DNA of 64,000 nucleotides from IMG/VR virus record IMGVR_UViG_3300036769_000253. One strand, 5' to 3'. Positions 28,412 to 28,534 of the stretch are shown here, one piece after another; position 1 is the first letter of the stretch; every line of letters starts with the position of its first letter. The stretch is from a virus (lineage: Duplodnaviria > Heunggongvirae > Uroviricota > Caudoviricetes). The notes below the pieces were generated by a model. The model searched no databases. It worked only from the letters and a program-made list of their open reading frames with translations, and had not been told where the DNA came from. A program made the translations under genes and the position numbers.

Positions 28412-28534
28412 GCCGAGGAGGCGGAATGGTATACGCACCGGACCCGTATTGAGGGTTGAAAAATTCTTGAGACTGCAACTGGACTGTAAATCTGGCGTCT
28501 TTTAGACTTGGAAGTTCGAATCTTTCCCTCGGCA
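28412..28534 (+). ncRNA. tRNA-Tyr(GTA)-like gene with about 42-nt insertion between D arm and anticodon arm
   Basis: Perfect acceptor GCCGAGG/CCTCGGC. D arm, anticodon arm CTGGA-CTGTAAA-TCTGG, variable arm and T arm all present. Extra segment ACCGGACCCGTATTGAGGGTTGAAAAATTCTTGAGACTGCAA. Confidence 0.45.

What the first reader, a model, noticed from the sequence alone, without database searches (positions are those of the whole stretch)
28412..28534. Second tRNA-Tyr(GTA)-like gene carrying a 42-nt insertion between D arm and anticodon arm
The element has a perfect 7-bp acceptor (GCCGAGG/CCTCGGC) and a D arm (GCGGAATGGTATACGC). It then has an extra segment (ACCGGACCCGTATTGAGGGTTGAAAAATTCTTGAGACTGCAA) before a Tyr-type anticodon arm (CTGGA-CTGTAAA-TCTGG), a long variable arm and a T arm.

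An insertion at positions 26/27 is not a known intron site. It could be a novel processed insertion, a tRNA-derived regulatory RNA, or a decaying duplicate of the tRNA-Tyr at 13518. A 5-prime fragment of the same D arm recurs at 27081-27112 as a self-closing hairpin.
Basis: seen in the sequence. Interest (0 to 1): 0.5.

Follow-up and report, generated by a model that had tools for sequence, protein, structure and literature searches.

The report
Phage tRNA gene with short intron
A phage transfer-RNA gene is interrupted, right where the anticodon stem meets its loop, by a conserved 41-base insert of a little-understood kind that large phages carry in many tRNA genes and that no known bacterial splicing route explains.

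Summary
The element at 28412-28534 is real. Rfam scores it as a tRNA (34.9 bits, cut-off 29) but ARAGORN misses it. Removing 41 bases (28443-28483) leaves a perfect 82-nt long-variable-arm tRNA with anticodon GUA.

The insert is not at 26/27. In two diverged relatives (L002, L009) the strand next to the D arm changes in step with the 3' anticodon-stem strand. That places the insert at 31/32, flanked by GGA(C) repeats.

It is not a decaying copy of tRNA-Tyr 13518 (55% identity). Against a phage about 90% identical overall it shows 2 differences in 124 columns, while the flanks are 51-80% identical. All stems stay paired in the relatives.

The insert is too small for a group I intron, has no bulge-helix-bulge motif, matches no Rfam ribozyme and is not a duplication.

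This phage lineage carries many interrupted tRNA genes, as reported for Lak megaphages ("enigmatic introns", 2019). The window also encodes an RNA ligase and several RNA end-healing enzymes.

Best reading (about 0.45): a functional intron-containing tRNA gene spliced by proteins. Main rival: an unspliced tRNA-like RNA. The 27081-27112 fragment is a relic of a replaced tRNA-Leu.

The parts
28412..28534 (+). Whole interrupted tRNA gene (123 nt; 82 nt without the insert; no encoded CCA)
   Evidence: Rfam RF00005 34.9 bits, model positions 1-71. Parsed.
28412..28442 (+). Exon 1 = tRNA positions 1-31: acceptor 5' strand GCCGAGG, A8 G9 (unusual A8), D arm 28421-28436, A26, anticodon-stem 5' strand CCGGA 28438-28442
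   Evidence: The D-arm 18-mer lies inside ARAGORN tRNA-Leu calls in 60 of 81 IMG/VR stretches and in none called Tyr.
28443..28483 (+). 41-nt intervening sequence. Its boundary could be slid up to 5 nt towards the 5' end or 1 nt towards the 3' end because of the CCGGAC/CTGGAC repeats at 28438-28443 and 28479-28484.
   Evidence: Rfam places a 47-nt insertion inside the anticodon loop. Outer-stem covariation. The insert is unique in the window. It differs from L001 by one base, an extra A in a hairpin loop.
28449..28470 (+). Predicted hairpin inside the insert: UUGAGGGUU-GAAA-AAUUCUUGA (9 pairs, 4 of them G-U). L002 and L009 have a hairpin at the same relative place with different sequence.
   Evidence: present in the free fold and in the fold constrained to the outer anticodon stem. 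Hairpins in relatives were read. Too few sequences for a covariation statistic.
28473..28478 (+). CUGCAA motif 2 nt after the hairpin. Relatives have CGA-CUGCAAU (L009:8885) and GUG-CAGCAU (L002). It resembles the helix-NNN-CAGCAA module found throughout this phage's tRNA region.
   Evidence: The link to the spacer module is an inference: the target does not match the strict motif.
28479..28483 (+). Inner pseudo-copy (CUGGA) of the anticodon-stem 5' strand. Only GGA is kept in the relatives.
   Evidence: Inner-copy pairing: window 5 of 5, L002 4 of 5, L009 3 of 5.
28484..28534 (+). Exon 2 = positions 32-73: loop CUGUAAA (anticodon GUA at 28486-28488), stem 3' strand UCUGG 28491-28495, variable arm 28496-28509, T arm 28510-28526, acceptor 3' strand 28527-28533, discriminator A 28534
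   Evidence: The joined arm A-CCGGA-CUGUAAA-UCUGG-C is identical to that of a genuine Psychrobacter tRNA-Tyr.
28540..28613 (+). tRNA-Cys(GCA), 5 nt downstream, probably co-transcribed
   Evidence: Its five differences from L001 lie mostly in the D arm.
28615..28652 (+). Intrinsic-terminator-like hairpin plus T run that would close the target + Cys unit
   Evidence: 11-pair stem, then TTTTTTTTAT.
28338..28401 (+). Upstream spacer element AAGACAC-AUG-CAGCAA...GUGUCUU, one of at least 9 copies in the tRNA array, ending 10 nt before the gene
39025..40380 (+). Candidate exon-sealing enzyme: RNA ligase-like protein (inferred role, weak match)
   Evidence: Pfam RNA_ligase 7e-06 (26.7 bits, just under the 27-bit cut-off) plus PHA02142 OB fold.
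33513..38950 (+). Candidate RNA end-healing genes: Thg1-like 33513-34358, HD 34844-35308, RlaP-like nucleotidyltransferase 35688-36476 (weak, below cut-off), Metallophos 36476-37252, RNase_T 37713-38516, cyclic-phosphate-processing receiver domain 38513-38950 (inferred role)
   Evidence: Pfam.

Best explanation
This is a functional, conserved class-II (long variable arm) tRNA gene interrupted by a 41-nt intervening sequence. The insert sits at the 5' junction of anticodon stem and loop, between positions 31 and 32. The two exons encode an 82-nt tRNA with a GUA (Tyr) anticodon on a body that most resembles phage tRNA-Leu genes. It is probably transcribed together with tRNA-Cys. The insert belongs to the short, non-group-I intervening sequences that are common in tRNA genes of this phage lineage and that were first noted, unexplained, in Lak megaphages. 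Inferred mechanism: the precursor's ends are matured by the usual tRNA enzymes. The insert is cut out by protein endonuclease(s) after each of the two GGA repeats, each of which can sit at the same stem/loop junction in one of two alternative foldings. The halves stay held together by the cloverleaf and are healed and sealed by the phage's own RNA-repair set (phosphoesterases, cyclic-phosphate-processing domain, RNA ligase). Shown here: the gene structure, its conservation, the insert position and the exclusion of known intron types. Inferred: that splicing happens, and by which enzymes.
For: Rfam tRNA hit above threshold, with the insert placed inside the anticodon loop. Purifying selection: 2 differences in 124 columns against L001, while the upstream intergenic stretch is 80% identical, the region after tRNA-Cys 51%, neighbouring ORFs 93-94%, and the genomes about 90% overall. 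Diverged counterparts with an insert of 43 and 48 nt at the same site exist in L002, in the same Gly(UCC)-Cys(GCA) slot and with the same odd A8 G9, and in L009. Across the three lineages every stem stays paired. Pairs 27-43 (C-G, G-U, G-C) and 28-42 (C-G, C-G, A-U) change on both sides across the insert. The 7-nt loop keeps C32, U33, A37 and A38. Selection on a stem split by the insert, together with a canonical loop, is what a spliced decoding tRNA predicts. L002 and L009 exons are 81% identical but their inserts only 40%, the pattern expected of an intron. The joined anticodon arm equals that of a genuine bacterial tRNA-Tyr. Many other tRNA genes in related phages are interrupted, including Ile, Lys, Leu, Gln and amber suppressors, and so is a tRNA-Ser(GCU) in this window. 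Lak phage tRNAs, Tyr(GTA) among them, have 79-114 nt introns with no Rfam hit. The window encodes an RNA ligase-like protein, a Thg1-like protein, an RlaP-like protein, several phosphoesterases, a cyclic-phosphate-processing domain and an RNase T-like exonuclease.
Against: There is no expression or splicing data. No endonuclease has been identified. No insert-free allele was found in any collection, so the excision points are inferred only. Only three independent lineages carry the element, so covariation rests on two pairs. A canonical tRNA-Tyr(GUA) already exists at 13518, so this copy is not needed for decoding. A8 replaces the near-universal U8. The L002 counterpart has a GAA (Phe) anticodon on a long-variable-arm body, which is odd for an ordinary decoder. 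The target lacks the closing helix plus CCA tail seen in the larger introns of relatives. The RNA ligase match is weak, and such repair genes are also explained by defence against host anticodon nucleases.
Confidence: 0.45

Rival explanations
1. It is an unspliced tRNA-like RNA. The molecule keeps its insert and works as a tRNA mimic rather than a decoder. The hairpin-NN-CUGCAA module in the anticodon arm would be a handle for a phage RNA-binding or processing factor. One candidate is the DUF2828 protein encoded about 600 nt downstream, with the major-vault-protein homologue beside it. The RNA could then be a cofactor of the RNA-repair cluster, or a decoy for host anticodon nucleases.
For: DUF2828 + DUF7788 and a major-vault-protein homologue lie directly downstream. 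A DUF2828 gene also follows the tRNA array in the distant Bacillus phage Tsamsa, where it is annotated 'RNA-binding protein'. A strand-specific motif [AT]AG[AG]C-N4-7-CAGCAA[AT] occurs 175 times on the + strand against 2 on the - strand in the 80 DUF2828 loci, 9 against 0 in the window and 3 against 0 in the Tsamsa locus, compared with about 0.1 per 10 kb in unrelated phage loci. Relatives carry 115-121 nt tRNA-like RNAs with this motif and no anticodon loop ('type A'). L009's insert (CGACTGCAAT) nearly matches the type A core (CGACAGCAAT). A8 and the anticodon changes (GUA, GAA, UAA) fit relaxed decoding constraints. A review of jumbo phages states that Ro/TROVE proteins work with a tRNA-like partner RNA.
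Against: The target does not match the strict motif: it has CTGCAA and no AGAC spacer. Only 4 of the 80 DUF2828 loci have a target-type gene, so it is not an obligatory partner. This reading does not explain why the outer strand 27-31 co-varies with 39-43, or why a canonical 7-nt loop with U33 and A37 is kept. Its topology differs from bacterial YrlA, whose ends lie at the Ro-binding stem, and Rfam YrlA gives no hit. DUF2828 has no detectable sequence match to Ro60 or anything else in the PDB.
Confidence: 0.3
2. It is a dead or dying gene. A redundant tRNA copy was inactivated by the insertion of a short piece of DNA (slippage, illegitimate recombination, or a MITE-like element leaving a short target duplication) and is on its way to decay.
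For: Imperfect direct repeats CCGGAC/CTGGAC flank the insert. A second tRNA-Tyr exists at 13518. The array holds relics and odd tRNA-likes at 27081-27112, 21520-21582 and 23113-23182. Close homologues are very rare in public data. The insert shares 10 nt (GACTGCAACT) with the neighbouring tRNA-Cys anticodon arm.
Against: The gene is 98.4% identical to L001 while its flanks are 51-80% identical. All four stems are intact, with compensatory changes, in three lineages whose exons are only 54-81% identical. Inserts of 41, 43 and 48 nt sit at the same site in all of them, which points to long-term retention. There are no terminal inverted repeats and no other copy of the insert in the window.
Confidence: 0.15
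3. It is self-splicing or self-cleaving RNA: the insert is a very small ribozyme that removes itself or cuts the precursor.
For: Small HDV-like 'theta' ribozymes are known next to tRNAs in gut phages. The insert has a hairpin with a GAAA loop and a conserved short motif.
Against: 41 nt is far below any group I core. A permissive Rfam search (E up to 10) of 28350-28640 found only tRNA. Removal needs two cuts plus a ligation. The three inserts are only 40-50% identical.
Confidence: 0.05

Closest known systems
'Enigmatic' tRNA introns of Lak megaphages (Devoto et al., Nat Microbiol 2019, PMC6784885)
   Same: Short non-group-I intervening sequences in the anticodon region of tRNA genes of large gut phages, tRNA-Tyr(GTA) among them. 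No Rfam match, highly conserved between related genomes, mechanism unknown.
   Different: Lak introns are 79-114 nt and were predicted at or near 37/38. They consist of a 5' hairpin, an A-rich linker and a tRNA-like minihelix (8-9 bp closing helix plus T arm). The target insert is 41 nt, sits at 31/32, has no closing helix or T arm, and is flanked by GGA(C) repeats. The phage lineage is also different (contigs up to about 200 kb with DUF2828 and a vault-protein homologue).
Group I introns in bacterial and phage tRNA anticodon loops (e.g. cyanobacterial tRNA-Leu(UAA); Patescibacteria, PMC13011429)
   Same: An interrupted bacterial-type tRNA gene, with the insert in the anticodon arm. Relatives also hold interruptions of about 300 nt that may be of this type (L079:7806, L133:1413).
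   Different: Group I introns are 200 nt or longer with a conserved catalytic core, the 5' exon ends in U and the intron ends in G (my own knowledge). Here the insert is 41 nt, has no Rfam group I hit, the exon ends in A and the insert ends in A.
Archaeal non-canonical bulge-helix-bulge tRNA introns
   Same: Short protein-spliced introns that can sit at many tRNA positions, 5' parts of the anticodon arm included. Exons are joined by an RNA ligase (my own knowledge).
   Different: No helix-bulge-helix-bulge-helix motif spans the junctions: candidates are at chance level and none brackets the insert. No splicing-endonuclease domain appeared among the 36 window ORFs scanned with Pfam. The host is bacterial.
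Phage T4 anticodon-loop repair (PrrC cut healed by Pnkp and sealed by Rnl1)
   Same: Phage enzymes that heal and seal a break in a tRNA anticodon loop while the cloverleaf holds the halves together. That is the chemistry needed for the last step proposed here (my own knowledge). The window has ligase-like, phosphoesterase and cyclic-phosphate-processing genes.
   Different: T4 repairs damage made by the host and removes no sequence. The use of such enzymes for splicing here is inferred.
Bacterial Y RNAs of the YrlA type with Ro60 (Rsr)
   Same: tRNA mimics encoded next to an RNA-binding scaffold protein of an RNA repair or decay module (and my own knowledge). The target lies just upstream of a DUF2828 gene that is annotated 'RNA-binding protein' in phage Tsamsa.
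   Different: YrlA is permuted: its ends form the Ro-binding stem and it has no free acceptor end (my own knowledge). The target has ordinary tRNA topology and a full anticodon loop, and gives no Rfam YrlA hit.

Membership tests
tRNA (Rfam RF00005) | Covariance-model score at or above the gathering score | tested here: met
   34.9 bits against 29, full model 1-71.
tRNA (Rfam RF00005) | Four paired stems, T loop TTCGAAT, 7-nt anticodon loop with U33 and a purine at 37 (once the insert is removed) | tested here: met
   All stems are paired in the window, L001, L002 and L009. Loops are CTGTAAA, CTGAAAA and CTTAAAA.
tRNA (Rfam RF00005) | U at position 8 | tested here: not met
   A8 in the window, L001 and L002. 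L009 has U8.
tRNA (Rfam RF00005) | Recognised by a standard tRNA gene finder | tested here: not met
   ARAGORN fails with default settings and with the intron option.
Group I intron in a tRNA | Catalytic core of about 200 nt or more; match to the Rfam group I model | tested here: not met
   The insert is 41 nt. A permissive Rfam search of 28350-28640 gave only tRNA.
Group I intron in a tRNA | 5' exon ends in U (U-G pair in P1) and the intron ends in G | tested here: not met
   Exon 1 ends GGA and the insert ends GGA, or GGAC if the boundary is slid by one.
Bulge-helix-bulge (archaeal/eukaryal) tRNA intron | Two 3-nt bulges separated by a 4-bp helix, holding both splice sites | tested here: not met
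   Relaxed scan in both mirror geometries: 5 candidates in the window against 5.8 in shuffles, none spanning the junctions. The same holds for L002 and L009.
Bulge-helix-bulge (archaeal/eukaryal) tRNA intron | A splicing endonuclease of the EndA family is available | tested here: inconclusive
   No such Pfam domain in the 36 ORFs scanned. Small ORFs, the rest of the phage genome and the host were not examined.
Lak-type phage tRNA introns | Short non-group-I insert in the anticodon region of a tRNA gene of a large phage, with no Rfam family and conserved between relatives | tested here: met
Lak-type phage tRNA introns | The intron holds a tRNA-like minihelix (closing helix of 7-9 bp plus T arm, short 3' tail) | tested here: not met
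   This holds for the Lak introns and for the larger introns of relatives, but not for the target, L002:9185 or L009:8885.
YrlA / Y RNA | 5' and 3' ends form the protein-binding stem; the tRNA-like domain is distal and has no free acceptor end | tested here: not met
   The target has ordinary acceptor-end topology and gives no Rfam YrlA hit.
YrlA / Y RNA | Encoded beside the gene of its Ro-type binding protein | tested here: inconclusive
   The DUF2828 gene starts 615 nt downstream. However, only 4 of 80 DUF2828 loci have this RNA, and DUF2828 shows no sequence match to Ro60 in the PDB.
tRNA pseudogene / decaying duplicate of tRNA-Tyr 13518 | Sequence descent from the 13518 gene | tested here: not met
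   55% identity, no closer than to the tRNA-Leu and tRNA-Ser genes. The nearest uninterrupted relatives found in the collected loci are tRNA-Leu genes, at 75-79%.
tRNA pseudogene / decaying duplicate of tRNA-Tyr 13518 | Neutral substitution rate and broken stems | tested here: not met
   2 differences in 124 columns against flanks that are 51-80% identical. Stems are intact, with compensatory changes.
MITE-like insertion | Flanking target-site duplication | tested here: inconclusive
   Repeats of 3-6 nt are present (GGA, GGAC, CGGAC), but they vary in length and are imperfect.
MITE-like insertion | Terminal inverted repeats and several copies in the genome | tested here: not met
   The insert is unique in the window, and only A/T-rich matches of 8-13 nt occur elsewhere.

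The most novel reading that the evidence does not exclude
These phages may have a tRNA splicing or processing pathway of their own, independent of both group I ribozymes and the bulge-helix-bulge endonuclease. In this reading, short inserts carrying a hairpin-NNN-CWGCAA module, the tRNA-like minihelix introns ending in CCA, and the CAGCAA spacer elements that punctuate the tRNA array are all signals read by one phage ribonucleoprotein machine (DUF2828, the vault-protein homologue, nuclease(s), end-healing enzymes and RNA ligase). That machine would control when particular tRNAs, amber suppressors included, become active during infection.
Probability: 0.2. Interest if true: 0.85.

Novelty: new variant of a known kind. 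Interest (0 to 1): 0.6.

Why it matters
Bacteria and their viruses are thought to interrupt tRNA genes only with self-splicing group I introns. The short introns reported in Lak megaphages in 2019 remain unexplained in the literature I could search. This locus extends the phenomenon to a different phage lineage, where it is frequent. It adds a smaller class at a different site (31/32, flanked by GGA repeats). It also places these genes next to a dense set of RNA ligase and end-healing genes. Together these give concrete substrates and candidate enzymes for asking how phage tRNA introns are removed. If removal is regulated, it could time the activity of phage tRNAs, including the amber suppressors used for stop-codon recoding. 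A practical point also follows: standard tRNA finders miss these genes, so phage tRNA inventories are undercounted.

Tried and rejected
- **Known phages, DNA level:** megablast and blastn against 50,697 phage records gave no match.
- **Duplication artefact:** the insert is unique in the window, apart from a 10-nt match to the tRNA-Cys anticodon arm and A/T-rich 8-13-mers.
- **Group I intron or known ribozyme:** a permissive Rfam search of the locus found nothing but tRNA.
- **Bulge-helix-bulge intron:** candidates are at chance level and none spans the junctions.
- **Thermodynamics to choose outer or inner anticodon stem:** -33.6 against -33.1 kcal/mol, not informative. The whole-molecule fold z-score is -0.77.
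- **ARAGORN intron mode:** misses the target.
- **Insert-free allele or further homologues:** five exact-pattern scans of metagenome, genome and viral collections found none for this gene. Degenerate patterns recovered only the L001, L002 and L009 contigs, plus one unrelated uninterrupted tRNA-like gene in L162. The one positive scan found genuine Psychrobacter tRNA-Tyr genes with the same anticodon arm.
- **MAFFT/RNAalifold on the insert-bearing genes:** the inserts and D loops misaligned, giving no usable consensus for the insert. I therefore parsed the stems by hand and built no covariance model.
- **Closing helix plus CCA tail, as in the larger introns:** absent from the target.
- **DUF2828 as a detectable Ro60/TROVE relative by sequence:** no PDB hit.
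- **Burroughs & Aravind 2016 on RNA-repair systems:** not held in the library.
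Full report
**Setting.** The window is AT-rich phage DNA with a long tRNA array on the + strand, from 13.3 to 28.6 kb. ARAGORN finds 21 tRNAs. Rfam finds the same 21 plus three more, one of which covers exactly 28412-28534 at 34.9 bits against a gathering score of 29. Nothing similar exists at the DNA level in 50,697 deposited phage genomes. A search with the downstream DUF2828 protein retrieved 80 related loci from IMG/VR contigs of up to 402 kb, many of them 120-200 kb. One of them, L001, is about 90% identical in DNA to the window.

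**Checking the observation.** In this sequence alone its position is ambiguous, since imperfect repeats (CCGGAC at 28438, CTGGAC at 28479) flank it. Rfam's own alignment pairs CCGGA with UCUGG and puts a 47-nt insertion inside the anticodon loop. My descriptor scan for tRNA shells of 96-330 nt gave two hits in the window. One is this element. The other, at 42846, I judge from its AT-rich sequence to be a chance match. The insert is also in L001, an independent genome, so it is not an artefact.

**Where the insert sits.** The shell scan of the 80 related loci found two diverged counterparts.
- L002:9185-9309 lies in the same slot between tRNA-Gly(UCC) and tRNA-Cys(GCA) and has the same unusual A8 G9.
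- L009:8885-9015 lies between tRNA-Cys and the DUF2828 gene.

Their inserts are 43 and 48 nt and sit at the same place. The strand next to the D arm pairs fully with the 3' strand in all three lineages: CCGGA/TCTGG, GCGGA/TCCGT and GAGGA/TCCTC. Pairs 27-43 and 28-42 change on both sides. The inner copy at the end of the insert (CTGGA, CCGGA, TTGGA) pairs 5, 4 and 3 of 5 and keeps only GGA. The true 27-31 strand is therefore the outer one, and the insert lies between 31 and 32, not at 26/27. Energies of the two cloverleaf versions are equal (-33.6 and -33.1 kcal/mol), so the comparison between lineages decides this, not thermodynamics.

**What the exons encode.** Without the insert the gene is an 82-nt class-II tRNA with loop CUGUAAA, discriminator A and no encoded CCA.
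- Its D-arm 18-mer lies inside ARAGORN tRNA-Leu calls in 60 of 81 IMG/VR stretches and in none called Tyr.
- Its nearest uninterrupted relatives in the collected loci are tRNA-Leu genes, at 75-79% identity.
- It is only 55% identical to the window's tRNA-Tyr at 13518, so it is not a copy of that gene.
- Its joined anticodon arm, A-CCGGA-CUGUAAA-UCUGG-C, is identical to that of genuine Psychrobacter tRNA-Tyr genes.
- The counterparts carry GAA (L002) and UAA (L009) in the same loop frame. The family appears to have shifted anticodon by single steps.
- A8 is found in the two non-Leu versions and U8 in the Leu version. From memory, U8-A14 matters for recognition by E. coli LeuRS. This is a lead only and was not tested.

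**Is it decaying?** No.
- Against L001 the gene shows one loop indel and one substitution in 124 columns (98.4% identity).
- The 83 columns of the upstream intergenic stretch are 80% identical, the region after tRNA-Cys 51%, and neighbouring ORFs 93-94%.
- The insert itself differs only by an extra A in its hairpin loop. Taken alone, 41 nt is too short for that to be significant, and a nearby intergenic stretch is also 98% conserved.
- L002 and L009 exons are 81% identical and their inserts 40%. Exons are constrained in sequence. Inserts keep their position and length, but I could not show a conserved fold.

**What the insert is not.**
- It is unique in the window, so it is not a duplication.
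- It is too small for a group I intron, and it hits no Rfam family even at E = 10.
- A relaxed scan for helix-bulge-helix-bulge-helix motifs gives chance-level counts, and none spans the junctions in any of the three lineages.
- It has no terminal inverted repeats.

**Anatomy of the insert.** In all three lineages the order is the same: 6-9 nt starting CC or AC, then a hairpin (UUGAGGGUU-GAAA-AAUUCUUGA in the window), then 2-3 nt, then CUGCAA, CAGCAU or CUGCAA, then 1-9 nt, then YGGA. Three lineages are too few for a covariation statistic.

**Context: many interrupted tRNA genes in this lineage.** The scans, parsed, show larger inserts of 49-121 nt in tRNA-Ile(UAU), Lys(UUU), Leu(UAA), Gln and amber-suppressor (CUA) genes of relatives.
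- These begin 1-4 nt into the anticodon loop with a 7-9 bp closing helix.
- Many hold a T-arm-like hairpin.
- Most end with CCA just before exon 2, so they look like tRNA minihelices.

The window has one more interrupted gene. At 17299-17857 a long-variable-arm tRNA, which I read as Ser(GCU), holds a 468-nt insert. That insert has a 7-11 bp closing helix and an ORF of the PD-(D/E)XK family PDDEXK_5 (3.5e-27). From memory, this family includes I-Ssp6803I, the homing endonuclease of a cyanobacterial tRNA group I intron. Only about 48 nt of the insert are non-coding.

The literature search found that Devoto et al. (2019) reported 'enigmatic introns' in Lak megaphage tRNAs (Tyr(GTA), Phe, Gly, Thr). 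They are 79-114 nt and three of the four have no Rfam hit. The fourth, the Thr intron, was recognised by Rfam as a tRNA. Parsed the same way, these too end in a tRNA-like minihelix. I found no later paper that explains them. The target belongs to this phenomenon, but to a shorter class that lacks the closing helix, the T arm and the CCA tail.

**Mechanism.** The window encodes, within 11 kb downstream:
- a Thg1-like protein;
- an RlaP-like nucleotidyltransferase (weak match);
- three calcineurin-type phosphoesterases;
- an HD protein;
- a cyclic-phosphate-processing receiver domain;
- an RNase T-like exonuclease;
- an RNA ligase-like protein (weak, 7e-06);
- NADAR and YqeY proteins.

These could heal and seal a tRNA cut in its anticodon arm, as T4 does after PrrC cleavage (my own knowledge). 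Both junctions of the target class read GGA|C. In one folding the 5' junction sits at the stem/loop boundary, and in the other folding the 3' junction does. One nuclease specific for that boundary could therefore make both cuts. This is my inference. No nuclease is identified and no RNA data exist. For the larger minihelix introns I infer, again without a test, that tRNA end-processing enzymes (RNase P at the base of the closing helix, a 3' cut after CCA) could release them.

**The main rival.** The RNA may stay unspliced and act as a tRNA mimic. A DUF2828 + DUF7788 protein and a homologue of the eukaryotic major vault protein (E 6.5e-20 to PDB vault chains over residues 313-770) follow directly. 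In the distant Bacillus phage Tsamsa the DUF2828 gene, annotated 'RNA-binding protein', also follows the tRNA array.

A strand-specific element runs through the tRNA regions of these phages. It consists of a helix strand [AT]AG[AG]C.., 4-7 nt in all before CAGCAA, and a partner strand 60-120 nt downstream. Its closing helices differ between copies in a compensatory way. Counts of the strict motif:

| Set | + strand | - strand |
|---|---|---|
| Window | 9 | 0 |
| 80 DUF2828 loci | 175 | 2 |
| Tsamsa locus | 3 | 0 |
| Unrelated phage loci | about 0.1 per 10 kb | about 0.06 per 10 kb |

Relatives also have 115-121 nt tRNA-like RNAs with this motif in place of an anticodon arm. L009's insert core nearly matches theirs. 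The target's insert could therefore be a degenerate copy of a protein-binding or processing module.

Against this reading, the target fails the strict motif, and only 4 of 80 DUF2828 loci have such a gene. It also leaves unexplained the covariation across the insert and the canonical loop.

**The 27081-27112 fragment.** In L001 this position holds an intact tRNA-Leu(UAA). In the window only its first 30 nt or so survive, followed by a different, complete tRNA-Leu(UAA) at 27119-27199 that aligns poorly with the L001 gene (35% identity). The fragment is a replacement relic. Its self-complementary ends (GAGCTG/CAGCTC) may be incidental.

**Verdict.**
- An intron-containing, functional tRNA gene of the enigmatic phage kind: about 0.45.
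- An unspliced tRNA-like RNA: about 0.30.
- A dead gene: about 0.15.
- A ribozyme: about 0.05.

It is a new variant of a known but unexplained kind.

Noticed in passing
window 17299-17857 (+); ORF 17370-17789: A second interrupted tRNA gene. It is a long-variable-arm tRNA that I read as Ser(GCU); ARAGORN in intron mode calls it Gly(GCC). It is split in the anticodon loop by 468 nt that hold a 139-aa PD-(D/E)XK endonuclease (Pfam PDDEXK_5, 3.5e-27). Only about 48 nt of the insert are non-coding, there is no Rfam group I hit, and a 7-11 bp helix closes the insert.
   Followed up: partly
window 29149-33242 (+): A DUF2828 + DUF7788 protein (504 aa) is followed by an 814-aa homologue of the eukaryotic major vault protein (Pfam shoulder and repeat domains; E 6.5e-20 to PDB vault chains over residues 313-770). 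The pair lies directly after the tRNA array. DUF2828 genes occur in 710 deposited phage genomes and also follow the tRNA array in Bacillus phage Tsamsa.
   Followed up: partly
window 33513-46287 (+): A dense RNA-repair and tRNA-processing gene set: Thg1-like, HD, RlaP-like nucleotidyltransferase, three Metallophos phosphoesterases, RNase T-like exonuclease, cyclic-phosphate-processing receiver domain, RNA ligase-like protein, GIY-YIG homing endonuclease, YqeY and NADAR. An SPFH/flotillin protein lies at 46338-47834 and a PIN + PhoH protein at 49056-50321.
   Followed up: partly
window 13098, 15364, 16896, 21643, 23544, 24729, 25286, 27202, 28338 (+), each about 60-120 nt; also L165 (Tsamsa) 5245, 6465, 6854: A family of spacer or leader elements in the tRNA array: helix strand ([AT]AG[AG]C..), a few nt, CAGCAA, 40-90 nt (some with a GGTTCGAATCC T-arm-like hairpin), then the partner strand. 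The closing helices differ between copies in a compensatory way. The strict motif is strongly strand-specific (175 + against 2 - in 80 related loci) and is conserved in the distant Bacillus phage Tsamsa. It matches no Rfam family, and its function is unknown.
   Followed up: partly
window 27081-27199 (+): A 5' relic of an ancestral tRNA-Leu(UAA), still intact in L001, lies directly upstream of a non-homologous replacement tRNA-Leu(UAA) at 27119-27199. The relic's D stem differs from L001's by a compensatory pair, GCGG..ACGC against GTGG..ACAC.
   Followed up: yes
window 27802-28125 (+): This 324-nt intergenic stretch is 98% identical to L001, while neighbouring ORFs are 93-94% identical. It has no Rfam match, and its fold z-score is only -1.0. 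Unexplained.
   Followed up: partly
window 20464-20552 (+): tRNA-Ile(UAU) is 89 nt long because of an extra 17-nt variable arm (AAGCC-CCAGCAA-GGTTT). The arm's loop carries the same CAGCAA motif.
   Followed up: no
window 21520-21582 and 23113-23182 (+): Two tRNA-like genes seen only by Rfam (40.9 and 38.9 bits). The first is 63 nt and has 13 unpaired-looking nt in place of an anticodon arm. The second looks like tRNA-Pro(UGG) with an unusual T arm.
   Followed up: no
L004:4100-4215, L007:2191-2307, L009:7259-7374, L011:2533-2647, L038:2187-2304, L071:2465-2584, L074-L077: 'Type A' tRNA-like RNAs of 115-121 nt. They have normal acceptor, D and T arms, but the anticodon arm is replaced by a 3-bp stem (CGT/ACG; CCG/CGG in L038), a hairpin, the AGAC..CAGCAA motif and a second hairpin. 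There is no anticodon loop.
   Followed up: partly
L055:4076-4219, L079:4042-4185, L017:6860-7042, L066:2567-2688, L045:6212-6343, L052:3396-3523, L016:4094-4286, L010:7275-7422, L055:14047-14192: tRNA genes of related phages (Ile, Lys, Leu, Gln and two amber suppressors) hold inserts of 49-121 nt that look like tRNA minihelices: a 7-9 bp closing helix starting 1-4 nt into the anticodon loop, often a T-arm-like hairpin, and mostly CCA just before exon 2.
   Followed up: partly
L002-L070, many loci: Many related phages carry one or two amber-suppressor tRNAs (anticodon CUA), usually between tRNA-Ser(UGA) and tRNA-Leu(UAA). This suggests TAG recoding in the lineage. ARAGORN called no tRNA with a CTA anticodon in the window.
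   Followed up: no
L106:984-3290, also L092, L115, L129, L137 (unrelated IMG/VR contigs): Arrays of near-identical Leu-type tRNA shells (AGTCAGG..GGCGGAAT..ACAGGTTCGAATCCTGTCCTGACT), each enclosing a different 45-105 nt core with no anticodon loop. L106 alone has at least seven. They may be tRNA-scaffolded small RNAs.
   Followed up: no
L079:7806-8115 and L133:1413-1720: tRNA genes with interruptions of about 230 nt that look like group I introns by eye. L133 is a tRNA-Leu(UAA) split after U34. Neither was tested with Rfam.
   Followed up: no
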